A stretch of 64,000 nt of DNA from Escherichia phage vB_EcoM_JN03: the sequence record OR885871. One strand, given 5' to 3'. The notes under the pieces were generated by a model. It searched no databases and had not been told where the DNA came from. It was given only the letters and a program-made list of their open reading frames with translations. Below are positions 1-59,567 of this stretch, piece by piece; position 1 is the first letter of the stretch, and each line of letters begins with the position of its first letter. Made by a program: the position numbers and the translations under genes.

Positions 1-1
1 T

Positions 2-2509
2 TCTACAATTACCTGGGTCTATAATGGGGGTTCAGCGATTGGCGGTGAAACCGAAATCACGTTAGACATCGTTGTTGATGATGTTCCAGCCATTGATATA
101 AACGGAAGTCGCCAGTATAAAAATCTGGGGTTCACATTCGATCCATTAACCAGTAAAATCACTCTTGCGCAAGAACTGGATGCGGAGGATGAAGTTGTTG
201 TAATTATCAATGGAACGCCAAACATCTATAATCAAATTGATTATACTTTGCGGGAAGTGGCTCGTGTAACCAATGTTAAAGATACAGAGGTCATTTATTT
301 TAGTGTTGGTGCTGTGTTAAGTGGATATAAAGTTATCTATGATAAAGTAACACAGAGATCATATTTTATTCCAGAGTTACCGACTGGAACCACGGCGGTC
401 AGCCTTAGTTCTTCGGCTGTACTTGTGCATTCTGCTGGTAGTGTTGATCTGGGCGCATTAGCTGTATCTCGTGAAGAATACGTAACATTGTCTGGGACAT
501 TTGATTCTGGTGCTGTCATCAATGTTAAAAATGAATTACTCACCCACACGGATGGAAAGTATCGCTGGGATGGGGAATTCCCCAAAATCGTTCCGGATGG
601 TTCAACTCCGGCGACGTCTGGTGGCATTGGTATTGGGTCATGGGTTGCAGTAGGTAATGAAGCAATACGTGTAGAGCTTGCAAGTCCTGCAAGTGGGTAT
701 GGTGCTGAAATGGTAGCACTGAAACAGCCAGTTTCTGGCTCAAAAGAGCGCACTGTTTACGACTGGATTGCTGATATCATAACTGCAAAGGATGGGGATA
801 GTATTGTTGCAGATGGTATTAATAATGATGCTGTTGGTATAAACGCTTTCCTACCTGTACTGGCAGCAGCGCAGCGTGAACTCCTTTTAGTTCCTGGCGT
901 TTATTTGATAAACGATGACATTACAATAGATATTCCGGTAACGATCCAGCCAGGTGCAATCCTGAAGCCTAGAAATGGTGCGCAACTTACGTTCAAATCA
1001 GAGATAAGAGCTGGATGCTATAAAATATTCGACACCGAGGATGATTTTTACACGTCACCTGTCGCCGTGCCATCTGTAAAGATAGCAAAAGGCGGAGTAA
1101 AACCAGAGTGGTTTGGTGCTGCTACGGTGAGTTCTTATGATGAGATTGCATCAGCGGTTAACTGCTCTCCGGCATTCATGAAAGCGTGGAGGGCAACAAC
1201 TGGGGAATATACCGCAAACGTTACGGCATCATACAGGCAGTCTGAGTACATGCACTCGTATATAGACCTATCCGCTGGAAAATACCGCATGGATAAAGAG
1301 GTATTCCTTGGTCACACTGATTTCACACCAACAACTGTAAGATACAACAAAAACGGTGGTGGCGTTATAGGGCAAGGTGCAGGTTTATCTATTCTGGTAT
1401 TCACTGACAGCGAGTATGCTGGGAACGCATATTTTACCGCAAATGATATGTCAGGAGAAATGCACACGTTTAAAGGATTTAAATGTACAGCATTCGATCC
1501 ATCAAAAACAGGCACTGCTCAGTATGAAACAAAAGTTGGCGCAATGATTCTGATTGGTAGCGCTGATTCCATAACTACTTCTGATTTATGGGCCGCTGGA
1601 GCGACTACTGTCGTTGCAGATACTAATGGCTTTGGTAGAGGTGGTGTTGGCATTCAGTTTGATTCTCTTGTAGACCATCAATTTTCTGACCTGTTAGTTG
1701 AACATTGTGTGCATGGGGTGGCATTCAGTTCATGCATTTCAACAGGAAATAACATTAAGGGGTTTGCAAACAAAATTAGTGATTTGTCATTCGGAAACTA
1801 CATCCCTGACTGGCCTCAAATGGTATCACAAACAACTAAGAATACTATAGGGGTTAACGGTTTCGAGTCTAAATTCTGCCTGAATAACCCAATAACATTT
1901 GGCACATATGACAACATGGTTGATATAACCGGTGTTGTTGTTGATGGTCGTGCAGAGTCCTCACTGTCAGTCGTTACCAACCGTGTGATTGGATTTGGTG
2001 TTGGTGGTGGTGTGTCAGGCACTATTTCTGGGTCTGCCAGGAATCTGCTTTTAGGACTAATTGCAGATTTCGGGGTCTCATTTGCAGGAAGGGACGGCGC
2101 ACCATTAAGACTTAATTTCGATATCGAGAATATTGTTGGGGCCTCATCTTCTGAAAACGCCGTTGTCGCTGTTGATAAATCTGACTCCAATTTAATTGGT
2201 TCGATTGGTATCTCATCATCTGTGTTTCCTATATTGAGGTCATCTAGCACCACCACCACAATTGAAATAAATGCTAGCGACATAACACTAACAACAGGAA
2301 GCCCTTCTGGAACAAATGCAATCTTATGTAAAGGTGGTAACTTAAACGTCACGGCTTTAAAGATATCAAACTCAACAGGAATAACTGGGTTAGTCTACGC
2401 AGAAAATAGTTCTGTATTACTACCTACACACACTATAAGCCCAACAAGAGCAGTGACAAAAGTTGGCGGAGCGACTATTAAATCGTACTCTATAACTGAT
2501 TTTGCTTAA
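2..2509 (+). CDS. Tailspike / receptor-binding protein TSP-A, 5'-partial (continues upstream of window)
   Basis: Frame is open from nt 2 to the stop at 2507-2509; the ORF-track start at 248 is an internal TTG. Upstream translation (...GGETEITLD...NIYNQIDYTLREVARVTNVKDTEVIYF) parallels the first ~175 aa of TSP-C. Carries the conserved module (NVKD-EVIYF, SGYKVIYD, GSVDLGALAVSREEYVTL, NVKNELL, YRWDG, GSTP..SGG.G.G.W) followed by a Gly/Thr/Asn/Ser-rich divergent C-terminal region. Confidence 0.75.
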   Translation, partial: STITWVYNGGSAIGGETEITLDIVVDDVPAIDINGSRQYKNLGFTFDPLTSKITLAQELDAEDEVVVIINGTPNIYNQIDYTLREVARVTNVKDTEVIYFSVGAVLSGYKVIYDKVTQRSYFIPELPTGTTAVSLSSSAVLVHSAGSVDLGALAVSREEYVTLSGTFDSGAVINVKNELLTHTDGKYRWDGEFPKIVPDGSTPATSGGIGIGSWVAVGNEAIRVELASPASGYGAEMVALKQPVSGSKERTVYDWIADIITAKDGDSIVADGINNDAVGINAFLPVLAAAQRELLLVPGVYLINDDITIDIPVTIQPGAILKPRNGAQLTFKSEIRAGCYKIFDTEDDFYTSPVAVPSVKIAKGGVKPEWFGAATVSSYDEIASAVNCSPAFMKAWRATTGEYTANVTASYRQSEYMHSYIDLSAGKYRMDKEVFLGHTDFTPTTVRYNKNGGGVIGQGAGLSILVFTDSEYAGNAYFTANDMSGEMHTFKGFKCTAFDPSKTGTAQYETKVGAMILIGSADSITTSDLWAAGATTVVADTNGFGRGGVGIQFDSLVDHQFSDLLVEHCVHGVAFSSCISTGNNIKGFANKISDLSFGNYIPDWPQMVSQTTKNTIGVNGFESKFCLNNPITFGTYDNMVDITGVVVDGRAESSLSVVTNRVIGFGVGGGVSGTISGSARNLLLGLIADFGVSFAGRDGAPLRLNFDIENIVGASSSENAVVAVDKSDSNLIGSIGISSSVFPILRSSSTTTTIEINASDITLTTGSPSGTNAILCKGGNLNVTALKISNSTGITGLVYAENSSVLLPTHTISPTRAVTKVGGATIKSYSITDFA

Positions 2510-2513
2510 CAAA

Positions 2514-2540
2514 AACCCCGCTTCGGTGGGGTTCTTATTA
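2514..2540 (+). terminator. Rho-independent terminator (aaccccgcttcggtggggtt + U-tract)
   Basis: GC-rich perfect hairpin immediately after the TSP-A stop, followed by a T-rich run. Confidence 0.7.
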
Positions 2541-2571
2541 TACCTTTGTTCATAAATTTTATTAGTTCAGA

Positions 2572-2579
2572 CTAAATAC
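2572..2579 (+). promoter_or_regulatory. Late-promoter-like box CTAAATAC upstream of TSP-B
   Basis: 7/8 match to T4 late promoter TATAAATA; the same box recurs upstream of several structural genes in this window. Confidence 0.45.
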
Positions 2580-2611
2580 CCCATATTGGTCATCCTTTAT
2601 GGGGTATTATC

Positions 2612-4525
2612 ATGATTTCTCAATTCAATCAACCACGCGGCTCCACTTCCATAGAAGTTAACAAACAATCTATCGCTCGAAATTTCGGTGTCAAAGAAGA
2701 CGAAGTCATTTATTTCACTGTCGGTATTGATCTCAGCGGATTTAAAGTAATTTATGATGAGTCTACCCAACGGGCTTATTCTCTTCCTTCGGGTATTGTT
2801 TCAGGAACGATTGCGATAAGTCTGAACGAACAAGCCATCCTTACTCATTCTTCTGGCTCTGTTGACCTTGGGGAATTAGCAGTAAGCCGCGAAGAATATG
2901 TGACTTTACCTGGTTCTTTTAATTTCGGTCATACCATTAATGTGAAAAATGAACTTCTTGTTCACGATGATAAAAAATATCGATGGGATGGTTCTTTGCC
3001 AAAGGCAGTTGCCGCTGGTTCTACACCCGATAACTCAGGCGGTGTTGGTTTAGGTGCATGGTTGAGTGTTGGTGATGTATCATTGAGAGCGGATTTGGCT
3101 AGTGGCACACTTGGTAAAGGTGCGAATCTTTTGACATATAAGTCACAAGTATCAAACTCGGTTGCTATAAGCCAACAAATTAAAAATAGTGAAAGGGTTT
3201 CTGTTTTTGAGTATTTGGCTAAGCCTATTCCTGGTTTTGATAATGCATCAGCATTCGCTGCTATGAAAGCTGATGCTGAAGCAGGTGTTGTAATAACAGT
3301 ACCTTCAGGAGTATATGAAACATCTGAACCACTGAGATTCACAAAACCTGTTCAAATATGGTTTGATGTAGGAGTGCGAATAAAACTTACATCTGGTGCA
3401 CATGACCATGTTGTGGAAATAGATTTACGTGGACAAGATGAGGGGTATTGGGGGTATAAACCTTTCTTTGGTGGTGGCAGGGTTATTCTTGATGGTCTTG
3501 GTCATGCTAAGTACGGGCTATCACTTCGTGGCGTAATATCTGGTGGTTTTCCTGGTATTCAAGCAACCAATATAACAACTGCTGGGTTATATCTGGCTTG
3601 GACTCAATGCTGTACATACACTGATTTTATTTGCTCTAATAACGTGGAGGTTTTCACAACAAAACCCCTGCACGGTATTTTAGTAGATAAAGATAACAAT
3701 CCGTCAAATCCACGTGGTACATCATGCGATATCTTTATTAACCCATGTGTAGAGCACACTGCGGGTGATGGGTTTGTAGGACTAAGCCTGATGAACTCAA
3801 TGGTTATAAACGGAACAATCGAGGGAAACCTTGGCGCAGGCATTTCATTGGGGCATCCTACAGATAATACTTACACTGCACTGGGTAATACATTTCTTGG
3901 TATTGACCTTGAGGTGAACACGCTAACTGATATTGTGATTAACAAGTTTTCACACATGAACGAGTTCATAGGACTCAAATCAGGTTATTCATCTCCATCA
4001 GTTCAGGTCAGAGGTTTTCGTAACTATTTCTCTGGAGGTACTGTTAGCGATTTCGACTTCAGGCCAGATAGCCATGACAACCACGTACAGGATGTAACAC
4101 TTTTAGCTGAGTTTCCTGTTGTTAATGATGAAGGGATAAGAAACACTTATGAAAGATTATGGAATCTTAACAATGCTCAAGTTAACGTAAGCACAAACCC
4201 TGTTAACACAAGAAGCAATCAGCCTATAGCGGGAGGTGAGACAGTAACGTTAGACCCATATAAAGCATCCTATGTTGTATGCACCGCAACAGGAACACCT
4301 ATTAATATAGTTTCTGCCACCAAAAAATTAGATGGAGCAAGAATAGATTTGACAATTCACAATGCATCAGGAACAGATTCATTAGTCATTAACTGGGCAT
4401 CAGATATTAGAGTTGGCAATTTTACTCCTCCACCAGCAGGTAAACATAAGGGGTTATCACTAAGATATGATGCTAATTACGGTTATTGGACTGTAGTTGG
4501 TGTTGGACTGGACGCTTTATCGTGA
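2612..4525 (+). CDS. Tailspike / receptor-binding protein TSP-B (637 aa)
   Basis: N-terminus carries the conserved module shared with the other three genes (GVKEDEVIYF, SGFKVIYD, GSVDLGELAVSREEYVTL, NVKNELLVH, YRWDG, GSTPDNSGGVGLGAWLSVG); divergent C-terminal domain. Confidence 0.75.
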   Translation: MISQFNQPRGSTSIEVNKQSIARNFGVKEDEVIYFTVGIDLSGFKVIYDESTQRAYSLPSGIVSGTIAISLNEQAILTHSSGSVDLGELAVSREEYVTLPGSFNFGHTINVKNELLVHDDKKYRWDGSLPKAVAAGSTPDNSGGVGLGAWLSVGDVSLRADLASGTLGKGANLLTYKSQVSNSVAISQQIKNSERVSVFEYLAKPIPGFDNASAFAAMKADAEAGVVITVPSGVYETSEPLRFTKPVQIWFDVGVRIKLTSGAHDHVVEIDLRGQDEGYWGYKPFFGGGRVILDGLGHAKYGLSLRGVISGGFPGIQATNITTAGLYLAWTQCCTYTDFICSNNVEVFTTKPLHGILVDKDNNPSNPRGTSCDIFINPCVEHTAGDGFVGLSLMNSMVINGTIEGNLGAGISLGHPTDNTYTALGNTFLGIDLEVNTLTDIVINKFSHMNEFIGLKSGYSSPSVQVRGFRNYFSGGTVSDFDFRPDSHDNHVQDVTLLAEFPVVNDEGIRNTYERLWNLNNAQVNVSTNPVNTRSNQPIAGGETVTLDPYKASYVVCTATGTPINIVSATKKLDGARIDLTIHNASGTDSLVINWASDIRVGNFTPPPAGKHKGLSLRYDANYGYWTVVGVGLDALS

Positions 4526-4573
4526 CATCACCAACATTATAAAATGATGTTGTTGCTGTTAAAATTTAAATAA

Positions 4574-4598
4574 CCCCGCTTTGGCGGGGTTCTTGTTA
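4574..4598 (+). terminator. Rho-independent terminator (aaccccgctttggcggggtt + U-tract)
   Basis: Near-identical copy of the hairpin at 2514-2540; part of a ~100-bp repeated intergenic cassette. Confidence 0.7.
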
Positions 4599-4629
4599 TA
4601 CCTTTGTTCATAAATTTTATTAGTTCAGA

Positions 4630-4637
4630 CTAAATAC
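4630..4637 (+). promoter_or_regulatory. Late-promoter-like box CTAAATAC upstream of TSP-C
   Basis: Same cassette as at 2572-2579. Confidence 0.45.
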
Positions 4638-4672
4638 CCCATATTGGCAAATCCTTTATGGGGTATTTTCAA

Positions 4673-7438
4673 ATGACCAGAAATGTAGAAGAATTATTCG
4701 GCGGCGTAATCACAGCTCCTCACCAGATTCCTTTCACGTATAAATCAAATGTCGGTGGAGAAACTTTCCTTTCTTTGCCGTTCCATCCCGTCACTGGTGT
4801 TATCACAATCAACGGTGGTATGCAAGTTCCGTTAGACAACTTTGAAATCGAAGGAAATACGTTGAATCTCGGGCGCGCATTGTCCAAAGGCGATGTTGTG
4901 TATTGCTTATTCGATAAAATTCTTTCGCCAGAAGATACAGCCAAAGGTATCCGCATATACAAATTTCAGGCCGTGGGAGGTGAAACCGAGTTCACTCCTG
5001 ATTTCACATCCTATGGTGTCCAATCTCTTTATATCGGTGGCGAGTACAAAACACCCGAAATTGAATATTCCTATAACAGCACGACAGGGAAAGTGTCTTT
5101 GCAAACTGCACTGACTGCAGGCGTTTGGGTAGTCGCTGAAATGTCTGTTAAACAACCGAATATCAGTCCGGCGTTTGACCGAAGTATTCAAGAAATCGCC
5201 CGTTCTGCTAATGTAAAAGACTCTGAAGTCATCGTTAGTACGGACACCATATCTTTGTTGGATGGGAAGAAAGTTGTTTATGATATAGCGACGCAAACCA
5301 GTTATGGTTTACCAACCATTCCTGATGGTTCTGTCATTTCTTCTGTATCTGCTGGGAAATTGAATTACAACCCAGGTGATGTGCAGGTTGATTTGTTGCC
5401 TTTAGAAGATTCATTTATTAATGTGATAAACACTCTGGGGCGCAATGATGGTGCCAAGTATATTGGAGAATGCCATTCTGTTGCTGATCTCAGGAATACT
5501 GAACCCACTATGGATGGACAACGCATTATTCTTAAGCAACACACTGCGGGTACTCTTCTTGGCGGAGGGGTATTCCGTGCGTTAATTGATGGTACAGGAA
5601 AGACTGATAATAACGGTACTGTGATCAAAACTGTTGGCGGCGCGGCATGGTTACGTGTTAATGCTGATAGAGTTAACCCATTCATGTTTGGTGCTTTGGG
5701 TGGTTCTAATGATGATACTATTCCAGTACAATCTTGTGTGGATAGTGGTAAGGCCACACAATTAACTGATGCACATTACGTTAGCAATATCCAGTTAAAA
5801 TATAATACGTCGTCTATTTATGGGTCTGGATTACATTACTCAAGGTTGCATCAGTTGCCTTCTGCTACTGGGAATTGTATTACCATAAAAGATACATGCT
5901 CCCTTATTGTATTAGACGCCTTTGGGGTATATGGCACAGGTGCACAACAAGGCATGCCATTTACTGCGGGCACAACAGGTATCTATGTAGAAACTCCTTC
6001 AGGTCTCTCAGCCGATTATCCGTTCCACACTACCGCAGACCCAAGACGCGACTTGTGTATTTCTAAGGTCCATATAGCAGGTTTTGATGAATATGGGTTA
6101 AATATTGATAGTGGTAACTTTAGTGTTACTACAGATTCTCTTTTAGTCAACCACATCAATCAGGTGGGTGTCCGTTGTGCTACTACTGATTGGACTTGGA
6201 CAAATATCCAGGTTAATACCTGCGGTAAACAATGTCTGGTTCTTGATGGTTGTGGTAATGGTCGTATTATTGGCGGTAAATTCATTTGGGCTAACTGGCA
6301 ACCTTATGGTACAGTAGGACAGTTCCCAGGCATTACTATTAATAACAGCCAGAATATGGTTATTAATGGTATTGAGGTACAAGATTGTGGCGGGAATGGC
6401 ATTGAGATTAGCGATTCATATTCAATTTCCATGAACGGATTGAACACCAATCGTAACGGCATCAATGCTAACAACACTTTCTACAACATCGTATTTAACA
6501 AAAGCGATGCAGTTATCAACGGATTCGTAGGACTCAATTATGCCGCGAATAGTGGTTCAGGTGCTAACTCTAGTGCAGGCAATTTTCAGTTCCTGTCTAA
6601 TGATTGTAGTGTCACCATTAATGGTGTGGTTGAGACTGGTTATATGGGCATTAACTTTATTGGTGATAACAATATTATCAACCCCACCAATTCCGACCTG
6701 AGCATTAACGGATTGGTTAATTATTCCAAGACTGGTTTGCAAACCATGAACGAGACCCCTACATTTGATGGTGTTAGCACTACACCTGTTTATGTAAGTG
6801 TCCCATCTTCTGTAGGGCAAGTAAATGGTCTGAGACTATCACAAGCCAACAAAGATAAATTACTGTATTCAAGAACAGCAGGTCCAGAAGGTATTACCAT
6901 GGCTGCTGTTGTAGTACCCACCATATCTGGAGCTGAAGTATTTAACTTCATGGCCATTGGTTCAGGGTTTAGTGATACATCCAACAGTCTTCATCTTCAA
7001 TTAGTTATAGACGCTTCTGGAAAACAAACAATTGCTTTGCTATTGGGGGGCGATGGTACAACCCAAATTTTATCTGGGGATTTACCTAACGACCTTAAAC
7101 TACAAAGTGGTGTACCATATCATATAGCTATTGGTGCTAAACCTGGATATTTCTGGTGGAGTATTCTTAATATTCAGACGGGTAAGAGAATCAGACGGTC
7201 ATTCCGAGGCGCTTATTTAGCCGTACCATTTAATTCTATATTCGGATTAACTTCTTCATTAACATTCTTCTCGGATAGCAATGCTGGTGGGGATGCTTGT
7301 TCTGGGGTTGGTGCTAAAGTGTATGTTGGTATGTTCTCTTCTGAGAACGATTATGTAGCTTCACGATACTACAACCTGATTAATCCTGTAGACCCTACTA
7401 AGTTAATTAGTTACCGTATATTGGATTCTTCTATTTAA
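4673..7438 (+). CDS. Tailspike / receptor-binding protein TSP-C (~921 aa) with long N-terminal extension
   Basis: Start moved to the ATG at 4673 because the ORF-track ATG at 4658 lies inside the conserved hairpin. The conserved module is internal (IQEIARSANVKDSEVI ... from ~aa 175), preceded by an N-terminal domain like the upstream part of TSP-A. Confidence 0.7.
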   Translation: MTRNVEELFGGVITAPHQIPFTYKSNVGGETFLSLPFHPVTGVITINGGMQVPLDNFEIEGNTLNLGRALSKGDVVYCLFDKILSPEDTAKGIRIYKFQAVGGETEFTPDFTSYGVQSLYIGGEYKTPEIEYSYNSTTGKVSLQTALTAGVWVVAEMSVKQPNISPAFDRSIQEIARSANVKDSEVIVSTDTISLLDGKKVVYDIATQTSYGLPTIPDGSVISSVSAGKLNYNPGDVQVDLLPLEDSFINVINTLGRNDGAKYIGECHSVADLRNTEPTMDGQRIILKQHTAGTLLGGGVFRALIDGTGKTDNNGTVIKTVGGAAWLRVNADRVNPFMFGALGGSNDDTIPVQSCVDSGKATQLTDAHYVSNIQLKYNTSSIYGSGLHYSRLHQLPSATGNCITIKDTCSLIVLDAFGVYGTGAQQGMPFTAGTTGIYVETPSGLSADYPFHTTADPRRDLCISKVHIAGFDEYGLNIDSGNFSVTTDSLLVNHINQVGVRCATTDWTWTNIQVNTCGKQCLVLDGCGNGRIIGGKFIWANWQPYGTVGQFPGITINNSQNMVINGIEVQDCGGNGIEISDSYSISMNGLNTNRNGINANNTFYNIVFNKSDAVINGFVGLNYAANSGSGANSSAGNFQFLSNDCSVTINGVVETGYMGINFIGDNNIINPTNSDLSINGLVNYSKTGLQTMNETPTFDGVSTTPVYVSVPSSVGQVNGLRLSQANKDKLLYSRTAGPEGITMAAVVVPTISGAEVFNFMAIGSGFSDTSNSLHLQLVIDASGKQTIALLLGGDGTTQILSGDLPNDLKLQSGVPYHIAIGAKPGYFWWSILNIQTGKRIRRSFRGAYLAVPFNSIFGLTSSLTFFSDSNAGGDACSGVGAKVYVGMFSSENDYVASRYYNLINPVDPTKLISYRILDSSI

Positions 7439-7444
7439 AAATAT

Positions 7445-7468
7445 ACCCCTCTTCGGAGGGGTCTTTAC
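7445..7468 (+). terminator. Rho-independent terminator (acccctcttcggaggggt + U-tract)
   Basis: Perfect hairpin right after the TSP-C stop. Confidence 0.6.
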
Positions 7469-7489
7469 TAGAAAAACAATGAGGTACTT

Positions 7490-9535
7490 ATGAACGAAAT
7501 GTTTAGTCAAGGTGGTAAAGGTTCGACTGGAATCTTAACCAATAAACAAGCAGTAGCCAGACACTTTGGTGTTAAACAATCTGAGGTTGTTTATGCCAAA
7601 TCAGGACAGTCCTTGTCTGGTTATAAAGTGATCTACGATAAGGTATCTCAACGTGCCTACGCTCTCCCTTCTAACATTGGTGCTGTAACGGTCACCAGTT
7701 TGGTCGACGGCATCCTCACGCACTCTGGAGGCACCGTAGATTTGGGTGCATTGGCTGTGTTAAGGGAAGAGTATGTTACTCTTGTTGAAAATTTTACTTC
7801 TGGATTTACGATTCGTGTCAAGAACGAAGTCGTGAGCGATGGGGTGAGTCTATATCGTTGGGATGGTGCTTTACCTAAAACCGTTGCACCTGGCTCAACA
7901 CCTGAAACAACTGGTGGAGTTGGTTTAGGTGCATGGTTGAGTGTTGGTGTTGCCACATTAAGAAGTGAATTAACATTGAATGTTTCAGATATTAATGGAT
8001 TGATTAACGTTAATACAAGAAACAAAAATTTCATGTATGTTACATCATCGTTTCGAGGGGGTGGAGGTGCTGGTGTATATGTATGGAATCCCACAAAAAA
8101 TAAATCATTACATAACGGAGCGACTATCATAGACCCATCAAGGACTCTACCGATAAACTGGGATTCTCAGTCGCAAATAGATGATTGGTTTACAATTTCA
8201 TCCACAGATGGGGTGGGATGTTTTGAATTAATTGAGGGGGAGAGCTCGGTTAATCCATTGCAGTGGGGCTGCTTGGGCGATTCATCAAAAGACAACCCAC
8301 ATAGTGGGTATGATAACTCTTTAATATCTGATTATGTTGATGACTACGCTGAATCAGTAAATAAAACAGTATTTTGGCCTCACGGTATATTTAGATTCAC
8401 TGGCCCACAGCAAAGAAAGACAAGGCATGATGGACATGAATACATTAGAATGAATAGTGAGTTTTCTACTGTTTTTATTATTGATAATCAGACGCCAATA
8501 ACTTTTCTAAAAGGAAAAGGGATTGGGACCGACCATCAGAAACTGTATGCCCACGGTTCAAGAGGAATAGAATATATTGGCAACCCTAAACGAATCCATA
8601 CTCTTCTTGATGCATACATGTACACGACATCATGGGAGCATTTTGCTGTTCGTGGATTTAAATATGGATTTGATATAAATTTTGTTTCTTTCCATATTCA
8701 GAATTTCTATTTTACTGATAATGAAATTGGAATTTACCCAAAACCACTAATGCCGCCATTGCAAGCTGCCGCACCAAGTACAATGCTATCATTATCTTAC
8801 GGTGCATTTGATTTCAGTAAGAATGGAATAGTATTCACTGAGAGATTTGGGCTTGGCGAGGCAGAAAACGTCATAAACGTAAATCTATCTTCTGTTGTGT
8901 TCGAACAAAATGAATTTGACGGATTCAGTTGTGCTAACTATCCATTACCTGTCGGTGTGAAAAATGCCAACAACAGGGTTATGAACCTTACAGTAAATAA
9001 TTGCTGGGCTGAACTTAACGGTAGAGCTGGTTTCAATTTCGAGAACGCTGACGTAACTGCGAATTCATTGAGAATAAATGAAGCGGATGAATTGATTTAT
9101 CCAGCAGGGGCAAGGACATACTCTATTGATGTAAATGGTGTAAGGGAAACAAACGTACTAAAATCGTCACTTTATGGAGCGCATAATATAGAAGCTCCGG
9201 TATCTGGTCAAATGATAATAAAACCAGATGGTAGCATTTATTCTGGTGCGACAATGCCTTTTACTGTTACAAAGACATCGGAAGGTCAATTTAAATTAAC
9301 GAATGCATCATCTACTCAGGGGTTTCAATACGTATCAATAGAGGTTATGCCATTCGATAGAGCAAGGATTGATACTGTTGTGACATGTGACCCATCAGAT
9401 GTCGCAGCGTTCGTTCAGTTTGGTACAATATCAAGCTATAAGATTGAATTTACATCGAGAGGCACATCTACATTTGTAACTCCAGAGGCTGGTTTCGCAG
9501 TTAAATTCTCATGGGTTCACCCTCTTAATAATTAA
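7490..9535 (+). CDS. Tailspike / receptor-binding protein TSP-D (681 aa)
   Basis: RBS gagg 7 nt upstream. N-terminal conserved module present (GVKQSEVVYA, SGYKVIYDKVSQRAY, GTVDLGALAVLREEYVTL, RVKNEVV, YRWDG, GSTPETTGGVGLGAWLSVG); divergent C-terminus. Confidence 0.75.
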   Translation: MNEMFSQGGKGSTGILTNKQAVARHFGVKQSEVVYAKSGQSLSGYKVIYDKVSQRAYALPSNIGAVTVTSLVDGILTHSGGTVDLGALAVLREEYVTLVENFTSGFTIRVKNEVVSDGVSLYRWDGALPKTVAPGSTPETTGGVGLGAWLSVGVATLRSELTLNVSDINGLINVNTRNKNFMYVTSSFRGGGGAGVYVWNPTKNKSLHNGATIIDPSRTLPINWDSQSQIDDWFTISSTDGVGCFELIEGESSVNPLQWGCLGDSSKDNPHSGYDNSLISDYVDDYAESVNKTVFWPHGIFRFTGPQQRKTRHDGHEYIRMNSEFSTVFIIDNQTPITFLKGKGIGTDHQKLYAHGSRGIEYIGNPKRIHTLLDAYMYTTSWEHFAVRGFKYGFDINFVSFHIQNFYFTDNEIGIYPKPLMPPLQAAAPSTMLSLSYGAFDFSKNGIVFTERFGLGEAENVINVNLSSVVFEQNEFDGFSCANYPLPVGVKNANNRVMNLTVNNCWAELNGRAGFNFENADVTANSLRINEADELIYPAGARTYSIDVNGVRETNVLKSSLYGAHNIEAPVSGQMIIKPDGSIYSGATMPFTVTKTSEGQFKLTNASSTQGFQYVSIEVMPFDRARIDTVVTCDPSDVAAFVQFGTISSYKIEFTSRGTSTFVTPEAGFAVKFSWVHPLNN

Positions 9536-9540
9536 TATAA

Positions 9541-9568
9541 AAACCCCGCTAATGCGGGGTTTTATTTC
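9541..9568 (+). terminator. Rho-independent terminator (aaaccccgctaatgcggggttt + U-tract)
   Basis: Hairpin plus T-run directly after the TSP-D stop. Confidence 0.7.
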
Positions 9569-9589
9569 TATCTGTTTGTTGGCTGTATA

Positions 9590-9597
9590 CTAAATAT
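9590..9597 (+). promoter_or_regulatory. Late-promoter-like box CTAAATAT
   Basis: About 33 nt upstream of the ATG at 9630. Confidence 0.4.
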
Positions 9598-9629
9598 CTC
9601 TATAAAATGGCACTCGATGGAGCATCAAA

Positions 9630-12600
9630 ATGCAATCTACAAATTTAAACCGTCGCCCGTATTGGGATGACTGGAATCCTGGGAAACGTTTTTCACGGAT
9701 TCTTTTTCGTCCGATGCCTATCAAGGTTCAGACTCGCGAACTGAACCAGATGCAGACTATTCTTCAGGATCAAATTGAAAAACTGGGCAACCATTTGTTC
9801 AAAGATGGTTCTATGGTTATCCCTGGCGGTCTGACGATCACTAACGCCGCAGTCTCTTTGAAATTCACTTTGGCGGGTGGTACTGAATTCACCGATCTGG
9901 AAGGTATTTCTGAACTCTACGTTTTGGGGAAGGACAATAATGCCAAAGCGCGTGTGTTGTCTCTTGAACGTGATCTGTCTGCTCCTGATACGATGCTGGC
10001 TATCCTTGAGATGACTGAAGCGGGTAATGCTGACGGATTCCATGTTAACGATAATCTGTATTTCCAGACTTACGACGTGAATGATAATTTCATTCGTATT
10101 GGTTATGGTATCGCAGCTGCGGTGACTGGTTCTATCGTCGCTCGTATGACGAAAGGCGTTTACTTCATTCGTGGGATGTTCCTAGACGTTGATGACGCAA
10201 CTCTTATCGTTGATAAAACTTCGAACACGTCTTCCCACCGCATCGGATTTAAAGTCACCGAAACCATTGTCACTGAAACAGAAGATGAATCCCTTTATTC
10301 AAATGCTCAGGGAACGATTAACTCCAAAGCCCCAGGCGCTCATCGTCTTCGAATAGATCTGGTCTTATCTCGATTTGATTATGATGCTGTGGTTGAAGAC
10401 TTTGTTGAACTGGCCAAAGTTCGTGATGGTAAAATCCAGTCTATGGTGACTCAGTCTACCTATAATATTCTGGAAGACACGTTAGCCCAACGGACTTATG
10501 AAACCAACGGCGATTATAACGTTTCAACGCACCAGATCGACATCCGCGAACACCTGAAAGTCAATAACAATGGTGGTGTATTCAATGCTGCTGATGGCGG
10601 TGACGAGAGCAAATTTGTTTCTGTGATGAAACCAGGTATTTCCTATGTTCGCGGTCGACGTATCGAAAATGTCGGGGAAGAACTGGTTATTGTCGACAAG
10701 GCGCGGGATACCGATGTCCTGAATAACACCCCTGTTGCGGTGGCCACAGGCAATTATCTGGTCACTAAGAATTCTAAAGGTGTGCCAGTGATATCCCGCA
10801 CCGTTCGATACAAATTACTGAATGCTTCAGGCGTTACCCAGGCTACAGCACTTTGTATATCAGCTGAACGTAATTCAACAGAATTTCGTCTGTATATGCG
10901 CGACCTGGTCGTTACTGGCGATGCATCCACTATCACCAAAGTGTCTTACGAAGAAAGCGGTATCACCATGTTCTCTGCTGAACTGGAATCCAATCAGTTT
11001 AACCAGAGTTCTATGATAGATCTGATCTTCTCTCTTCCGGTATTCGGTGTCAAGACTTTAGCACCAACTGGCTCCGTGGATATCAACTACACTGTTCTCA
11101 GAACGTATAAAGTGACGTTGGACAACAGCGGCGCGGGTTCTATTTCTGCTCCATTGGGATATAGTTTTTCCCCAGAATTTTCGTTGTACTCTGCAGCGAA
11201 ATCTGATGGTTCTGAAGCGCAGTTCGATATCTCTGGTTCTTTGTCTTTGACTGGTTCTCCGGTCGGTTCGGCGCTGCAGATTTCTCTGGGTAGTGGTAAT
11301 GCTAACCAGTCAATCAATTTGCTGGCGCTGATGATTCGTACCACGGCCACAATCAAAACGAAGACCATCACTGAAACAACTGAAACAGTGACGTTCACCT
11401 CGCAGACTAGCCGTCCTTTGGCGAATCACGATGGTTGGAAATTGGTATCGGTCAAAAACGATACTGGCGCAGACGTGACCTCCAGCTTCGTCCTAGATGG
11501 CGGACAGCGTGATGCAGGGTATTACAAGTCTAACTTGTTATCCAGCGCTGGAGCAATCTCAGGGACGTATACAGTGGTGTATCAATACTTCGCCCACAGT
11601 TCCGGTGATTTCTTCTCTGCTGATTCGTATACTTCGATGGATTATAAAGATATCCCGAATTATACATCTTCTACATCAGGCGCGGTGTACGGCCTGGCAG
11701 ATAGTTTGGATTTCCGTCCGAAAATCACCAACGGAACTTCTGACACAGATATGGTTCGTCCAAACACTGCAGTTATTCTGGACACAGAATATTATCTGCC
11801 GCGTATTGACGCGATTTATCTGGCAGACAACGGTGTGTTTGGTGTGGCTCGAGGCATTAGTTCTAACAACCTGGCTTCTCCAGCAATCCCAGCGAACGCC
11901 ATGCGTTTGTATGAATTGTTGATCCCACCGTATACGCCGAATATTGATGATATACAAATTCGCACTATTGACAATCGTCGTTATACGATGCGCGATATCG
12001 GTAAACTGGAAACCCGTATTTCCAATGTTGAATACTATACCTCTCTGTCACAGCTGGAATCTTCGGCGATGACACAGCAAGTGTTCGACCCCATCACGGG
12101 TAATCCCCGTTTCAAAAATGGTATTGCGGCTGATCCGTTCAAAGACTTCCGGTTGATTGATGACTTGTCTGAAGATTGGATGGGTTCTATCGATACCGAA
12201 AACGGACGTCTGCGCCCGTTTGTACAACAAAACGTTGTTGACATGACTCCTGTTGGCTGGAACAAAGTGATGGATGGGATGGTGGTTTGCAATTACACGC
12301 CTGAAATCTCAGTGAACCAAGAATATGCGACGACGACGATCAACGTTAACCCGTACGCAGTATTCAATTGGGAAGGTTTCTTGAAGATTAACCCGACCAC
12401 AGACTACTGGTTCGAAAACTATTATGTTGCACCGCGTATTATCAATGAAACGATCAACACCCGTGGTACTGTACAAGAAGGTTCAGTGTACGGAACATGG
12501 CGTACTGTTTCTGTTTCTGATCGTGTTTGGGAACCGCATGGTGCTGGTGGTGTGTGGTGGGGATATCGTTACCGCACGACTGTTTCTGCCCGTGATGTCA

Positions 12601-32362: not shown

Positions 32363-32392
32363 TTAAATACCCCCAAAATTGGGGGTATTTTT

Positions 32393-33121
32393 ATGAACGC
32401 ACAAATCTACGATGTCCTTTCCTCTGGTAACGCATTTAGCAATCCGCTTCCGTCCCTCTCCGGTCCCTCACAGGATTTAATCACCAGTGGTAGTACCAAT
32501 ATACCATTGATAACTGCCAACGCGACTCCGGAAATGCAGGTGGCTATGTCAGCAGGTGGATTAACACCAGATAAACTTACAGCAGCCACAAACATGTATA
32601 GCTCTGCCAACACGGGGATAACGACACTGAACACATATGGCGACCAGAGCATAAATGAAGCGTATTCAAGAATTGGGACTTCCGTTTCATATAAATCAGG
32701 TTTGAAAAGTATATCACGGGAACCAAACAATTGTGACCTGATCAACAAAGCATTCGGTGTTATTCAGGATCTAGGCCGCCAATGGTTAAACGCTATGGAA
32801 GGCGCTCTCCAGACTGTGACTAACAAGATATCGGAATTGTATGACATGATTATGGAAGGTGCCTCAGAAGGGATGGCAAAACTACAGCAATTGGCTGCTG
32901 AAGTAACAGGACATATCAATGAGGCAATAACCGCCGTCAATGGAGTTATAAATGATATCACCGATGGGATAGCTGCAGAACTTGCTCATATTGAAAGTAT
33001 GATCAAAGAATGTCTAAACTTCTCTTTTGCGAATGTTCTTGGAGAATGGGCCAAAGATCTCTGTGCTGGAGGCGTTATTGATAAAATAGGGACTCCAGAA
33101 TTAAAAGAGTCCCTGAAATAA
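32393..33121 (+). CDS. Hypothetical protein (242 aa), possibly virion-associated
   Basis: Preceded by the box TTAAATAC and a hairpin; Ser/Thr/Gly/Asn-rich N-terminus, helical C-terminus. Confidence 0.45.
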   Translation: MNAQIYDVLSSGNAFSNPLPSLSGPSQDLITSGSTNIPLITANATPEMQVAMSAGGLTPDKLTAATNMYSSANTGITTLNTYGDQSINEAYSRIGTSVSYKSGLKSISREPNNCDLINKAFGVIQDLGRQWLNAMEGALQTVTNKISELYDMIMEGASEGMAKLQQLAAEVTGHINEAITAVNGVINDITDGIAAELAHIESMIKECLNFSFANVLGEWAKDLCAGGVIDKIGTPELKESLK

Positions 33122-49667: not shown

Positions 49668-49734
49668 ATCCCCAACGTTTGTTGGGGATTTTTACTTTTA
49701 GGGGTTTACTTCTATAAGGCAAATGCGTATTATT
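49668..49734 (+). promoter_or_regulatory. Terminator hairpin + sigma70-like early promoter cassette, copy 1
   Basis: Hairpin ccccaacgtttgttgggg, then GTTTAC - 18 nt - TATTAT; 53 bp identical to copy 2. Confidence 0.6.
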
Positions 49735-49782
49735 GAATTCATCGGGCGGGGCGTTCCCGTTCATTGAAAGAAGGTATATATT

Positions 49783-50013
49783 ATGTCTGCTGTATCACGC
49801 GTTGTTGACCTCACCCCATTTTGCCTGAACAATATTGCTAACCCTAAATTGGTATTGTTTAAAGATCCCTCTAATTTCTGCTGGCTGGCAAGTTGTGATA
49901 CCCACAACGGACGTCGTGCTGTTTGGGAGTTTCCCGCAACTGATGAAGGTAGAATTTCCGCTATAAGAAAATTAGAACTGGAAAATTCAAGCCGAGAAAT
50001 TAAACAGGCATAA
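49783..50013 (+). CDS. Hypothetical protein (76 aa)
   Basis: Sits between the two promoter cassettes. Confidence 0.45.
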   Translation: MSAVSRVVDLTPFCLNNIANPKLVLFKDPSNFCWLASCDTHNGRRAVWEFPATDEGRISAIRKLELENSSREIKQA

Positions 50014-50079
50014 CTTTTATTAAATCCCAACAAACGTTGGGGATTTTTACTTTTAGGGGTTTACTTCTATAAGGCAAAT
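50013..50079 (+). promoter_or_regulatory. Terminator hairpin + sigma70-like early promoter cassette, copy 2
   Basis: Hairpin cccaacaaacgttgggg (loop is the reverse complement of copy 1's loop), then an identical promoter. Confidence 0.6.
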
Positions 50080-50139
50080 GCGTATTATTCAATAACTGGC
50101 GAACGATGGGTTCACCAGGTTGAAAGGTAAGATTATATC

Positions 50140-50379: not shown

Positions 50380-50438
50380 TTCTATAACTTAGGGTGGGGT
50401 ATGATTACCCCGCCTATTTGAAATGCAGGAACTATACC

Positions 50439-50945: not shown

Positions 50946-50998
50946 ACCCACGGCGGGGTATCTTTGCCCCGCCTATTTGAAATGCAGGAACTAATATC

Positions 50999-59556: not shown

Positions 59557-59567
59557 GGATTATCACG

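What the first reader, a model, noticed from the sequence alone, without database searches (positions are those of the whole stretch)
2512..4672. Near-identical ~100-bp intergenic cassettes flanking TSP-B
The sequences after the TSP-A and TSP-B stops are almost identical. Each holds a terminator hairpin, an AT-rich spacer (cttattatacctttgttcataaattttattagttcagactaaatacccc), a second inverted repeat (accccatattgg...cctttatggggt) and then the start codon. Besides providing terminator/late-promoter function, such direct repeats bracketing a receptor-binding gene are natural substrates for homologous recombination, allowing tailspike module exchange. The second hairpin overlaps the ribosome binding region and could modulate translation.
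Basis: seen in the sequence. Interest (0 to 1): 0.5.

Follow-up and report, generated by a model that had tools for sequence, protein, structure and literature searches.

The report
Repeated terminator–promoter cassettes between tailspike genes
Two near-identical 100-base stretches either side of a phage tailspike gene each hold a transcription stop signal and the phage's late-gene start signal, folded so that it hides the next gene's ribosome-binding site; they also mark where host-recognition modules have been swapped, and all the component parts are of known kinds.

Summary
Window 2510-2611 and 4568-4672 are two copies of one intergenic cassette (95% over 79 nt, none expected by chance). 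They follow the stops of TSP4 and TSP3 of a Kuttervirus (Ackermannviridae). A third, diverged copy follows TSP1 (9536-9629).

Each cassette is a chimera.
- **Left half:** an intrinsic terminator plus AT-rich filler. It occurs only in Kuttervirus, tolerates deletions and travels with the upstream receptor-binding module.
- **Right half:** the family's published putative late-promoter motif CTAAATACCCC plus the next gene's leader. It is 88-97% conserved in four other genera.

The 'second inverted repeat' is the promoter (5' arm) pairing with the Shine-Dalgarno GGGG (3' arm). Read-through RNA folds at about -20 kcal/mol with the SD fully paired. RNA started at the predicted +1 lacks the 5' arm. 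This is the logic of T4 genes e, soc, 49 and I-TevI. It recurs at about half of 24 late promoters (permutation p<=0.0005). Start sites are inferred, not mapped.

Recombination is partly supported. Variable modules run from a coding repeat (TD1) to the cassette, not cassette to cassette. Modules that changed slot have junctions inside the cassette. The three-tailspike genomes SE14 and PhaxI arose by TD1 x TD1 deletion.

The parts are known and the combination is new. Interest is moderate.

The parts
2..2509 (+). Its variable receptor-binding module is about 680-2505.
   Evidence: Synteny with CBA120 orf213 and Mutine. Pfam Tail_spike_N at aa 154-218. Homology to relatives ends at 624-679 and resumes at 2505-2516.
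559..670 (+). TD1-coding repeat in TSP4; left-hand edge of the variable module
   Evidence: Repeat family D1. Edges of the homology blocks. The SE14 deletion crossover maps to this repeat. GTTAVSL motif of PMC8432352.
2510..2611 (+). Cassette 1, the TSP4|TSP3 intergenic region
2514..2543 (+). Intrinsic terminator 1: stem-loop AACCCCGC-TTCG-GTGGGGTT (2514-2533) plus tail CTTATTATAC
   Evidence: Terminator scan. Fold.
2544..2571 (+). AT-rich filler. Found only in Kuttervirus, prone to indels, no sigma-70-type promoter match.
2572..2582 (+). Late-promoter motif CTAAATACCCC. The predicted late start is at about 2583-2586.
   Evidence: PMC7283392. The T4 spacing rule (PMC2988020) gives the start site; this is an inference.
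2575..2608 (+). Leader hairpin 1. 5' arm 2575-2585 (AATACCCCATA); inner GG/CC pairs 2588-2589/2594-2595; 3' arm 2598-2608 (TATGGGGTATT), which contains the SD-like GGGG at 2601-2604.
   Evidence: Fold gives -19.6 to -20.9 kcal/mol, z = -4.4. P(SD unpaired) is 0.00 in read-through RNA and 0.29 in late-start RNA.
2612..4525 (+). Conserved N-terminal anchor 2612-3088; variable receptor-binding module 3089-4525.
2977..3088 (+). TD1-coding repeat in TSP3
4526..4567 (+). Module-specific trailer after the TSP3 stop. It is not part of the repeat.
4568..4672 (+). Cassette 2, the TSP3|TSP2 intergenic region
4572..4601 (+). Intrinsic terminator 2: AACCCCGC-TTTG-GCGGGGTT plus tail CTTGTTATAC
4630..4640 (+). 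Late-promoter motif CTAAATACCCC. The predicted late start is at about 4641-4644.
4632..4668 (+). Leader hairpin 2. 5' arm 4632-4643; 3' arm 4657-4668, which contains GGGG at 4660-4663. The in-frame ATG at 4658 lies inside the 3' arm.
4673..7438 (+). TSP2, 921 aa. The start is taken at 4673, as in CBA120 orf211. It has no Tail_spike_N domain and no cassette after it.
7490..9535 (+). TSP1. TD1 repeat at 7852-7963; variable module about 7977-9537.
9536..9629 (+). Third, diverged member of the cassette family. Terminator 9540-9563, late box CTAAATA 9590-9596, then the vriC-like gene.
   Evidence: (D2)

Best explanation
The window comes from a Kuttervirus (Ackermannviridae) and shows the tailspike cluster in the order TSP4-TSP3-TSP2-TSP1-vriC. 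Each cassette is the junction between two units, and its two halves have different histories.

**Left half.** This is the intrinsic terminator of the upstream receptor-binding module plus AT-rich filler. It ends transcription of the upstream tailspike gene.

**Right half.** This is the family's late-promoter box CTAAATA-CCCC followed by the leader of the next tailspike. The box and the bases after it (AATACCCCATA) are the exact complement of the stretch that holds the Shine-Dalgarno (TATGGGGTATT).
- RNA that arrives from upstream (terminator read-through, or an early or middle transcript) folds a helix of 11-12 pairs that buries the ribosome-binding site.
- RNA started by the phage late sigma factor (a gp55 homologue) begins about 6 nt after the box, inside the 5' arm. 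It cannot form the helix and is translatable.
- Each tailspike would thus be made only from its own late promoter. This is the mechanism shown experimentally for T4 genes e, soc, 49 and I-TevI.

**Recombination.** The same cassette follows TSP4, TSP3 and, in diverged form, TSP1. These three genes also share the TD1-coding repeat. The pair 'TD1 repeat ... cassette' therefore brackets each receptor-binding module with homology. This has allowed modules to move between phages and between slots. The role is most likely a by-product of the regulatory repeat rather than a dedicated function.

**Shown here:** the anatomy, the conservation, the folding difference, the site-specific complementarity and the junction positions.

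**Inferred:** the transcription start position, the existence of read-through RNA, the effect on translation and the recombination pathway.
For: **Identity of the locus.** Megablast and synteny with CBA120 orf213-210 and Mutine.

**Promoter.**
- All 8 plus-strand CTAAATA sites in the window lie 23-42 nt upstream of a start codon with an SD.
- The motif is the published CTAAATAcCcc (PMC7283392).
- It is annotated as a putative late promoter in LIMEstone1.
- A late sigma factor is encoded at window 59553-60356 (phrog_234, E = 1.7e-53).

**Hairpin.**
- Read-through leaders fold at -19.6 and -18.8 kcal/mol, with z about -4.
- RNAs starting at the predicted +1 fold no better than shuffles, with z = 0.2 and 1.1.
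- P(SD unpaired) rises from 0.00 in read-through RNA to 0.29-0.33 in late-start RNA.

**Generality over 24 late leaders (8 in the window, 16 in LIMEstone1).**
- Adding the 11 promoter bases lowers the MFE by a mean of 6.4 and 6.3 kcal/mol. With the 5' arms permuted among sites the values are 3.4 and 3.5 (p = 0.0005 and fewer than 1 in 2000).
- Eleven sites have the SD under 20% accessible in read-through RNA, against one in late-start RNA (Wilcoxon p = 1.6e-5).

**Conservation.**
- The hairpin half is 88-97% identical in Limestonevirus, Nezavisimistyvirus, Taipeivirus and Agtrevirus.
- Whole-genome DNA similarity between LIMEstone1 and ViI or CBA120 is about 59% (PMC3296691).
- In 16 leaders, 94% of cells are paired. 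The three top pairs covary (AU/UA/CG, some G.U), and slid controls give 34-55%.

**Recombination.**
- The variable blocks are 680-2505, 3089-4568 and 7977-9537. Their left edges lie in the TD1 repeats and their right edges at the stop codon or terminator.
- The CBA120 TSP4-2 module and the FEC14 TSP3-3 module share the same trailer and the 11-nt-deleted spacer; their terminator hairpins correspond but the loop is inverted. Their hairpin loop and tail follow the downstream gene.
- The TSP1-1 and TSP4-7 modules share sequence through the stop and the terminator hairpin, then switch.
- Right-hand junctions in 30 cassette variants scatter across the left half. They never pass CTAAATA.
Against: - No transcription start site has been mapped for any Ackermannviridae phage, as far as the library search shows. 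The +1 is extrapolated from T4.
- In Kuttervirus a terminator lies 40 nt upstream, so read-through RNA may be scarce and the gating of little consequence.
- Only about half of the late leaders show a strong effect. Against other SD-bearing gene starts the difference is modest (Mann-Whitney p = 0.09 in the window, 0.01 in LIMEstone1).
- The nine lower pairs of the helix never vary. They say nothing about structure, and each arm could be conserved for its own reason (promoter; SD and spacing).
- Late-start RNA still has partial SD pairing (P unpaired about 0.3).
- The recombination junctions are read from patterns of shared sequence, not observed as events.
- The copy-number variants do not need cassette x cassette exchange. 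SE14 and PhaxI are TD1 x TD1 deletions. The STP07 junction is not homologous.
Confidence: 0.6

Rival explanations
1. The second hairpin is mainly a transcription attenuator or terminator that overlaps the promoter, as in PeSL elements. It stops RNA polymerase arriving from the upstream tailspike gene. Hiding the ribosome-binding site would be incidental.
For: - The Mutine record annotates this hairpin as a terminator (L001 8308-8342).
- The 3' arm is followed by, or includes, a U-rich run (GGGGUAUUUUC in cassette 2).
- In Limestonevirus, Taipeivirus and Bue1 there is no other terminator between the two genes, so this hairpin would be the only one.
- PeSL stem-loops that overlap a -10 box were shown to terminate transcription (PMC2839356).
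Against: - The loop has 12-13 nt. The U-run is short and partly paired, and the terminator scan did not call it.
- Kuttervirus has a canonical terminator 40 nt upstream, yet keeps the hairpin unchanged.
- The same complementarity to the SD is seen in leaders with short AU-poor stems and no U-run, for example 16106 and 35540.
- This reading is not exclusive of the main explanation.
Confidence: 0.25
2. The cassettes exist as recombination sites that bracket TSP3, so that the whole gene can be excised, inserted or exchanged, as with PeSL minicircles.
For: - They are direct repeats of 95% identity, 2058 bp apart. T4-type recombination needs less than 50 bp of homology (PMC2839356).
- LHE287 has no TSP3 and a single cassette. 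Its loop resembles cassette 1 and its tail resembles cassette 2.
- STP07 has three copies and two TSP3 genes.
Against: - In nine relatives the conserved block spans the cassette plus the TSP3 N-terminus (2510-3088). The variable block starts inside the gene.
- The single-cassette genomes SE14 and PhaxI are TD1 x TD1 deletions.
- The middle copy in STP07 lacks the 39-nt spacer, so it is not a cassette x cassette hybrid.
- Variants specific to cassette 1 persist across genomes without being homogenised, for example AAATTTGATTAG.
- The conserved half is present as a single copy in genera where no such repeat exists.
Confidence: 0.15
3. The promoter lies in the AT-rich spacer (CATAAATT, 2551-2558, resembles T4 TATAAATA). 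The hairpin would then be the 5'-terminal structure of every late transcript. It would stabilise the mRNA or tune translation constitutively.
For: - CATAAATT is two mismatches from TATAAATA.
- In CBA120 cassette 1 and FEC14 cassette 2 the 11-nt deletion creates TATAAATT.
- 5'-terminal hairpins are known to protect mRNAs (general knowledge).
Against: - The spacer is absent from four genera that keep the hairpin. It is also absent from the STP07 middle copy and from several Kuttervirus-like loci.
- CTAAATA, not this sequence, recurs before 8 of 8 late ORFs in the window.
- A transcript carrying the whole helix would have its SD 0% accessible, which would be odd for an abundant structural protein.
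Confidence: 0.08
4. The inverted repeat acts in DNA. It would be a palindromic operator for a dimeric protein, or a cruciform used in recombination or replication.
For: It is a perfect 11-12 bp inverted repeat that is highly conserved. The PeSL authors speculated about a protein binding to GGGG...CCCC stems (PMC2839356).
Against: - Related leaders keep the pairing through G.U wobbles, which have meaning only in RNA. Examples are the TSP4 leader TAGATG/CATTTA, 16106 CCTTCAA/TTGAGGG and 35540 CTCCA/TGGGG.
- The arm sequence varies between genes while the complementarity is kept.
- The spacing between arms ranges from 4 to 20 nt.
Confidence: 0.05

Closest known systems
T4 genes e (lysozyme), soc, 49 and I-TevI: an inhibitory leader helix whose 5' strand contains the late promoter (reviewed in PMC3014915)
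   Same: The late-promoter box lies in the 5' strand of a helix whose 3' strand holds the Shine-Dalgarno. Transcripts from upstream are predicted to be untranslatable, and transcripts from the embedded late promoter lack the 5' strand. The phage has gp55-type late transcription.
   Different: - The box is CTAAATA followed by a C-run, not TATAAATA followed by AT-rich sequence.
- The start codon is outside the helix.
- The design is found at about half of the late promoters, including major structural genes, rather than at a few special genes.
- Nothing has been tested experimentally here.
PeSL (promoter-early stem-loop) regulatory cassettes of T4-type phages (PMC2839356, PMC4122927)
   Same: Both are short composite intergenic repeats running stop codon, terminator stem-loop, AT-rich stretch, promoter, SD, start codon. 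They flank exchangeable genes, and recombination junctions fall inside the repeat.
   Different: - The promoter is of the late (gp55) type, not sigma-70 early.
- There are two or three copies, next to essential structural receptor-binding genes, not dozens around ORFans in hyperplastic regions.
- The cassette supplies only the right-hand arm. The left arm is a coding repeat.
- Minicircles have not been looked for.
Viunalikevirus/Ackermannviridae regulatory motif CTAAATAcCcc (cited in PMC7283392; putative late promoters annotated in LIMEstone1, PMC3296691)
   Same: Exact match at 2572-2582 and 4630-4640, at the usual distance upstream of late genes.
   Different: In the papers I could read, the motif is given as a bare consensus. 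Here the 'cCcc' tail is shown to be complementary, site by site, to the downstream Shine-Dalgarno.
TD1/GTTAVSL recombination model for Kuttervirus tailspike modules (Sorensen et al. 2021, PMC8432352)
   Same: Receptor-binding modules of TSP1, TSP3 and TSP4 are interchangeable. The left junction lies at the end of TD1.
   Different: That paper does not mention intergenic sequence. The word 'intergenic' does not occur in it. The cassette family supplies the missing right-hand homology and is present after exactly those three genes. TSP4-8 (SE14) and the TSP4-2 of PhaxI turn out to be deletion fusions.

Membership tests
Intrinsic (rho-independent) terminator | G+C-rich stem-loop directly after a stop codon | tested here: met
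   2514-2533 and 4572-4591 have 8 pairs with 5-6 G-C pairs and a 4-nt loop. Both are in the MFE structures.
Intrinsic (rho-independent) terminator | U-rich tail after the stem | tested here: met
   The tails CTTATTATAC and CTTGTTATAC pass the criterion of at least 5 T in 8. The run is interrupted, so termination may be partial.
Intrinsic (rho-independent) terminator | Termination of transcription in vivo or in vitro | not testable with these tools
   Needs 3'-end mapping.
Ackermannviridae late promoter (CTAAATAcCcc) | Sequence motif | tested here: met
   Exact CTAAATACCCC at 2572-2582 and 4630-4640.
Ackermannviridae late promoter (CTAAATAcCcc) | Position just upstream of late or structural genes, on the coding strand | tested here: met
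   Of the plus-strand sites, 8 of 8 lie 23-42 nt before an SD-bearing start. The 2 minus-strand sites lie inside genes with no ORF following.
Ackermannviridae late promoter (CTAAATAcCcc) | The phage encodes the gp55-type late sigma factor | tested here: met
   Window 59553-60356 matches phrog_234 'late sigma transcription factor', E = 1.7e-53.
Ackermannviridae late promoter (CTAAATAcCcc) | Late transcripts initiate there | not testable with these tools
   No paper in the library combines 'Ackermannviridae' with 'transcription start'.
T4-type helix that sequesters the ribosome-binding site and has an embedded late promoter | [quoted passage not shown] | tested here: met
   The SD (GGGG) is fully paired, with P unpaired 0.00. 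The helix is -19 to -21 kcal/mol. The AUG is 3-4 nt outside the helix.
T4-type helix that sequesters the ribosome-binding site and has an embedded late promoter | [quoted passage not shown] | tested here: met
   The 5' arm 2575-2585 overlaps the box 2572-2578 and its CCCC tail. The same holds at 4632-4643.
T4-type helix that sequesters the ribosome-binding site and has an embedded late promoter | Late transcripts start inside the helix and lack its 5' strand | not testable with these tools
   Inferred from the T4 rule that the box sits at the -10 position (PMC2988020). This puts +1 at about 2584 and 4642.
T4-type helix that sequesters the ribosome-binding site and has an embedded late promoter | Transcripts initiated upstream enter the gene and are poorly translated | not testable with these tools
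   Needs RNA-seq and reporter assays. The terminator directly upstream suggests such RNA is a minority in Kuttervirus.
T4-type helix that sequesters the ribosome-binding site and has an embedded late promoter | Pairing kept in relatives and paralogous leaders | tested here: met
   94% of cells are paired. Three pairs show changes on both sides. Slid controls give 34-55%. Arm permutation gives p<=0.0005 in two genomes.
PeSL cassettes | Composite of stem-loop terminator, AT-rich stretch, promoter and SD between a stop and a start codon | tested here: met
   Anatomy.
PeSL cassettes | Promoter of the sigma-70 early type | tested here: not met
   No sigma-70-type match falls within 2510-2611 or 4568-4672. 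The promoter box is of the late type.
PeSL cassettes | Many copies flanking non-essential ORFans in hyperplastic regions | tested here: not met
   There are two close copies plus one diverged copy, all next to tailspike genes. A separate pair of PeSL-like cassettes lies at 49671-50093.
PeSL cassettes | Recombination junctions inside the cassette | tested here: met
   Seen in the CBA120/FEC14 and CBA120/FEC14-TSP4-7 comparisons and in the scatter of junctions across 30 variants. These are inferred from sequence patterns.
PeSL cassettes | Excised minicircles | not testable with these tools
   Needs inverse PCR on infected cells.
MITE or other mobile repeat | Terminal inverted repeats, target duplications, many dispersed copies, presence in host genomes | tested here: not met
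   There are only two copies in 64 kb. The 18-mer core has 10 hits in 596 Gb of bacterial genomes, which is the chance level, and none has the 3' arm. No Rfam family reaches its threshold.

The most novel reading that the evidence does not exclude
In Ackermannviridae the C-rich tail of the late-promoter consensus (CTAAATA-cCcc) may be conserved because it acts as a built-in anti-Shine-Dalgarno, not because the sigma factor needs it. This would be a family-wide rule by which a late gene is translatable only from RNA started at its own promoter. Expression of each virion protein, most strictly the tailspikes, would be set promoter by promoter, whatever reads through from upstream.

Coupled to this, 'TD1 repeat ... 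terminator-promoter cassette' would form a two-site scaffold. Receptor-binding modules could drop into any of three slots without disturbing the regulation of the next gene.
Probability: 0.35. Interest if true: 0.6.

Novelty: new variant of a known kind. Interest (0 to 1): 0.45.

Why it matters
Kuttervirus phages carry four tailspikes and are candidates for therapy and biocontrol, because swapping spikes changes the host range.

- **Engineering.** It helps to know that the exchangeable unit runs from the TD1 repeat to the terminator. The next gene's promoter and leader, from CTAAATA onward, must be left intact. This gives practical cut points.
- **Regulation.** If the promoter-SD pairing works as in T4 gene e, it extends a mechanism known from a few T4 genes to a general feature of late expression in another phage family. 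It would also explain the odd G+C-rich tail of that family's late-promoter consensus.
- **Testability.** One start-site mapping experiment and a few reporter constructs would test it.

Tried and rejected
- **Sigma-70 promoter in the AT-rich spacer.** No match within either cassette. The spacer is absent or deleted in many relatives.
- **Known RNA family.** Rfam gives only sub-threshold matches to the terminator region.
- **Mobile element or host-derived repeat.** The core 18-mer occurs in bacterial genomes only at the chance rate and without the partner arm.
- **Cassette x cassette deletion as the origin of three-tailspike genomes.** Rejected for SE14 and PhaxI, which are TD1 x TD1 fusions. 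Left open for LHE287 (n = 1).
- **Unequal crossover between cassettes as the origin of the STP07 duplication.** The junction GCGGGG|ACTAAATA lacks the spacer, so it is not a homologous hybrid. An assembly artefact cannot be excluded.
- **Concerted evolution of the two copies within a genome.** No clear signal. Variants specific to cassette 1 are inherited across genomes.
- **Divergent promoter on the minus strand of the 3' arm.** The reverse complement reads GAAAATACCCC or ATAATACCCC, not CTAAATA (sequence).
- **Published transcription start data for this family.** None found. The paper that first defined the motif (PMC4174289) is not held.


Full report
**What the window is.** The first 10 kb match the tailspike cluster of Kuttervirus phages (Ackermannviridae). 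Megablast of 2300-4900 finds 210 phage records, mostly Salmonella and Escherichia kutterviruses. Only the cassettes and the gene N-termini are covered (35% of the query, 94-95% identity). Synteny with CBA120 (orf213-orf209) and Mutine fixes the genes as follows:
- TSP4 ends at 2509, with its 5' end cut by the window.
- TSP3 is 2612-4525.
- TSP2 is 4673-7438.
- TSP1 is 7490-9535.
- The vriC-like gene is 9630-14468.

Pfam finds the Tail_spike_N domain in TSP4, TSP3 and TSP1 but not in TSP2.

**The observation.** It is correct.
- The stretches after the TSP4 and TSP3 stops align from the terminator to the start codon.
- 2511-2589 equals 4569-4647 at 95% without gaps.
- The 44-nt core occurs exactly twice in 64 kb, with none expected by chance.
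- A third, diverged member follows TSP1 at 9536-9629. It aligns along its whole length with one 10-nt gap. The region after TSP2 shares only a terminator-like hairpin.

**Anatomy.** Cassette 1 (2510-2611) has four parts.
- A terminator stem-loop, AACCCCGC-TTCG-GTGGGGTT at 2514-2533, with the tail CTTATTATAC.
- An AT-rich stretch running to 2571.
- CTAAATACCCC at 2572-2582.
- An inverted repeat with arms AATACCCCATA (2575-2585) and TATGGGGTATT (2598-2608), then ATG at 2612.

Cassette 2 is the same, shifted by 2058 nt. Its helix has 12 pairs (4632-4643/4657-4668). The GGGG in the 3' arm is the only Shine-Dalgarno-like sequence before each start codon.

**The promoter.** CTAAATAcCcc is a published regulatory motif of this phage group (PMC7283392). 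The LIMEstone1 record annotates CTAAAT at these positions as a putative late promoter (PMC3296691).
- In the window, all eight plus-strand CTAAATA sites lie 23-42 nt upstream of an SD-bearing start codon. The two minus-strand sites lie inside genes.
- The window encodes a gp55-type late sigma factor at 59553-60356.
- No sigma-70-type promoter match falls in either cassette.

**What the second inverted repeat is.** Its 5' arm is the promoter.
- T4 late promoters sit at the -10 position, about one helical turn before the start (PMC2988020). By that rule +1 is near 2584 and 4642, inside the 5' arm. This step is inference.
- RNA that includes the box folds at -19.6 and -18.8 kcal/mol (z about -4). 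Its SD has an unpaired probability of 0.00.
- RNA beginning at the predicted +1 folds no better than shuffled sequence (z = 0.2 and 1.1). Its SD is about 30% free.
- This is the arrangement demonstrated for T4 genes e, soc, 49 and I-TevI. There, upstream-initiated RNA is untranslatable, and RNA from the embedded late promoter lacks the 5' strand (PMC3014915).

**It is a general design, strongest at the tailspikes.** I took every CTAAATA followed by an ORF start in the window (8 sites) and in the LIMEstone1 genome (16 sites; L034-L036).
- Adding the 11 promoter-side bases lowers the leader MFE by a mean of 6.4 and 6.3 kcal/mol.
- When the 5' arms are permuted among sites the gain is 3.4 and 3.5 (p = 0.0005 and fewer than 1 in 2000). 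The complementarity is therefore site-specific.
- Half the sites gain at least 5 kcal/mol, against about 20% of other SD-bearing starts. That contrast is modest (p = 0.09 and 0.01).
- In read-through form, 11 of 24 sites have the SD under 20% accessible. In late-start form, 1 of 24 does (Wilcoxon p = 1.6e-5).
- Different genes use different arm sequences: CCCCATA/TATGGGG, CCCCTAG/CTAGGGG, CCTTCAA/TTGAGGG and CTCCA/TGGGG. Some include G.U pairs.
- In an alignment of 16 leaders, 94% of cells are paired and three pairs change on both sides. Slid controls give 34-55%. The G.U pairs favour an RNA structure over a DNA palindrome.

**Conservation splits the cassette in two.**
- The promoter-hairpin half (window 2571-2609) is 88-97% identical in Limestonevirus, Nezavisimistyvirus (Bue1), Taipeivirus and Agtrevirus.
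- LIMEstone1 and ViI or CBA120 share only about 59% DNA similarity overall (PMC3296691).
- In those genera the intergenic region consists of this half alone.
- The terminator-plus-filler half is confined to Kuttervirus-like phages and tolerates deletions. It lacks 11 nt in CBA120 cassette 1 and 39 nt in the middle copy of STP07.
- The core 18-mer occurs in 596 Gb of bacterial genomes only at the chance rate and never with its partner arm. No Rfam family matches.

**Recombination.** BLAST of window 1-10000 against nine relatives gives the same block pattern each time.
- Conserved segments are the TSP4 N-terminus up to about 624-679, then 2505/2516-3077/3101, then 4566/4574 onward, then 7445-7976, then 9537/9562 onward.
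- Variable segments are 680-2505, 3089-4568 and 7977-9537.
- Each variable receptor-binding module therefore starts at the TD1-coding repeat (559-670, 2977-3088, 7852-7963). This is the GTTAVSL site of Sorensen et al. (PMC8432352). It ends at the stop codon and terminator.
- The cassette plus the next gene's N-terminus form one conserved block. The two cassettes do not bracket the exchange unit.
- Modules that occupy different slots in different phages show where the right-hand exchange took place.
  - The CBA120 TSP4-2 module and the FEC14 TSP3-3 module carry the same trailer and the 11-nt-deleted spacer, with corresponding terminator hairpins (loop inverted in FEC14). Their hairpin loop and tail are those of the downstream gene. 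The junction therefore lies between ...TATTATAAATTTTATT and the loop.
  - CBA120 TSP1-1 and FEC14 TSP4-7 share sequence through the stop and the terminator hairpin, then switch.
- Across 30 cassette variants, the right-hand junctions scatter over the left half and never pass CTAAATA.
- The three slots reported to exchange modules (TSP1, TSP3, TSP4) are exactly the three that have TD1 on the left and a cassette-family member on the right. TSP2 has neither.

**Copy-number variants.**
- SE14 has one cassette and three tailspikes. Its TSP4 is a TSP4 N-terminus joined to a TSP3-1 module. The two homology blocks overlap in TD1 at L006 7127-7365.
- PhaxI's single cassette is identical to FEC14 cassette 2, so it is the same kind of TD1 x TD1 deletion.
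- STP07 has an exact 2172-nt tandem duplication of TSP3. The junction GCGGGG|ACTAAATA lacks the spacer, so it is not a homologous hybrid and could be an assembly artefact.
- LHE287 is about 85% identical in the flanks and has no TSP3. Its single cassette is 96.8% identical, with a cassette-1-like loop and a cassette-2-like tail. This is compatible with a cassette x cassette deletion, but it is one case.

**Comparison with known systems.**
- The regulatory half works like the T4 e/soc/49/I-TevI leaders.
- The whole cassette resembles PeSL elements of T4-type phages: a composite terminator-promoter repeat at which modules are shuffled (PMC2839356, PMC4122927). It fails two defining PeSL features, namely an early sigma-70 promoter and many copies around ORFans. 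I do not file it as a PeSL.
- The motif itself and tailspike module swapping are both published.
- In the papers I could read, I did not find two points: the pairing of the motif's C-run with the Shine-Dalgarno, and the cassette as the right-hand junction. 'Intergenic' does not occur in PMC8432352. No paper in the library combines 'Ackermannviridae' with 'transcription start'.

**Verdict.** The terminator and late-promoter reading is right in kind, with the promoter relocated. The translation idea is supported and given a specific mechanism. The recombination idea is half right. This is a new variant of known kinds of element. Interest is moderate, and one start-site mapping experiment would test the mechanism.

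Noticed in passing
window 49671-49738 and 50026-50093: A second pair of intergenic repeats (93% identical) flanks a small ORF. Each has a terminator hairpin, a T-run and a sigma-70-like -35/-10 (GTTTAC, about 17 nt, TATTAT), so they look like true PeSL-type early cassettes. The hairpin of copy 2 is the exact reverse complement of copy 1 (CCCCAACGTTTGTTGGGG versus CCCAACAAACGTTGGGG).
   Followed up: partly
window 50386-50434 and 50945-50993: A hairpin-plus-SD leader (86% identical) is repeated in front of two adjacent small ORFs that both begin MT-DQ. They are probably tandem paralogues.
   Followed up: no
window 3089-4525: The receptor-binding part of this TSP3 has no close relative among 50,697 phage records. 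The best matches are 52% aa identity to tailspikes of two 43-44 kb Escherichia phages (hz69, vB_EcoS_GZMU_E2010), and 42% to the TSP2 modules of PhiSH19-like kutterviruses. It is probably an undescribed TSP3 subtype.
   Followed up: partly
L008 (Salmonella phage STP07, KY000003) 7709-12051: An exact 2172-nt tandem duplication gives two identical TSP3 genes. The middle intergenic copy lacks the 39-nt spacer. This is either a real recent duplication or an assembly artefact.
   Followed up: partly
L006 (SE14) 7127-7365; L038 (PhaxI) 4565-4654: The three-tailspike genomes SE14 and PhaxI are deletion fusions: a TSP4 N-terminus joined to a TSP3 receptor-binding module through the TD1 repeat. This explains the published 'TSP4-8 resembles TSP3-1' similarity, and the TSP4-2/TSP3-3 similarity in PhaxI.
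   Followed up: yes
L037 (FEC14) 8565-8600 compared with L002 (CBA120) 5964-5995: The terminator after the same receptor-binding module has its loop inverted between the two phages (CCCCCGCTTTTGGCGGGGG versus CCTCGCCAAAAGCGGGGGG). This is the same kind of hairpin flip seen at window 49671/50026.
   Followed up: no
window 4658-4660: An ATG in frame with the TSP2 start (4673) lies inside the 3' arm of the leader hairpin. ORF finders will call it as the start, which adds five residues.
   Followed up: partly
window 32363-32395: TTAAATACCCCCAAAATTGGGGGTATTTTTATG is a late-box variant (T for C). It forms a perfect 12-bp helix with the SD of the gene at 32393. This is the cleanest example of the promoter-SD design outside the tailspike cluster.
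   Followed up: partly
window 7439-7489: The TSP2|TSP1 junction has a terminator-like hairpin (ACCCCTCTTCGGAGGGGT) but no CTAAATA box. TSP1 therefore appears to have no late promoter of its own and would depend on read-through from TSP2.
   Followed up: no
L037 (FEC14) 13725-13972: The region after FEC14 TSP1 carries a different terminator and about 140 extra bases before the conserved ...TTTTTATTTCTATC block resumes. This is another right-hand junction at the terminator.
   Followed up: no
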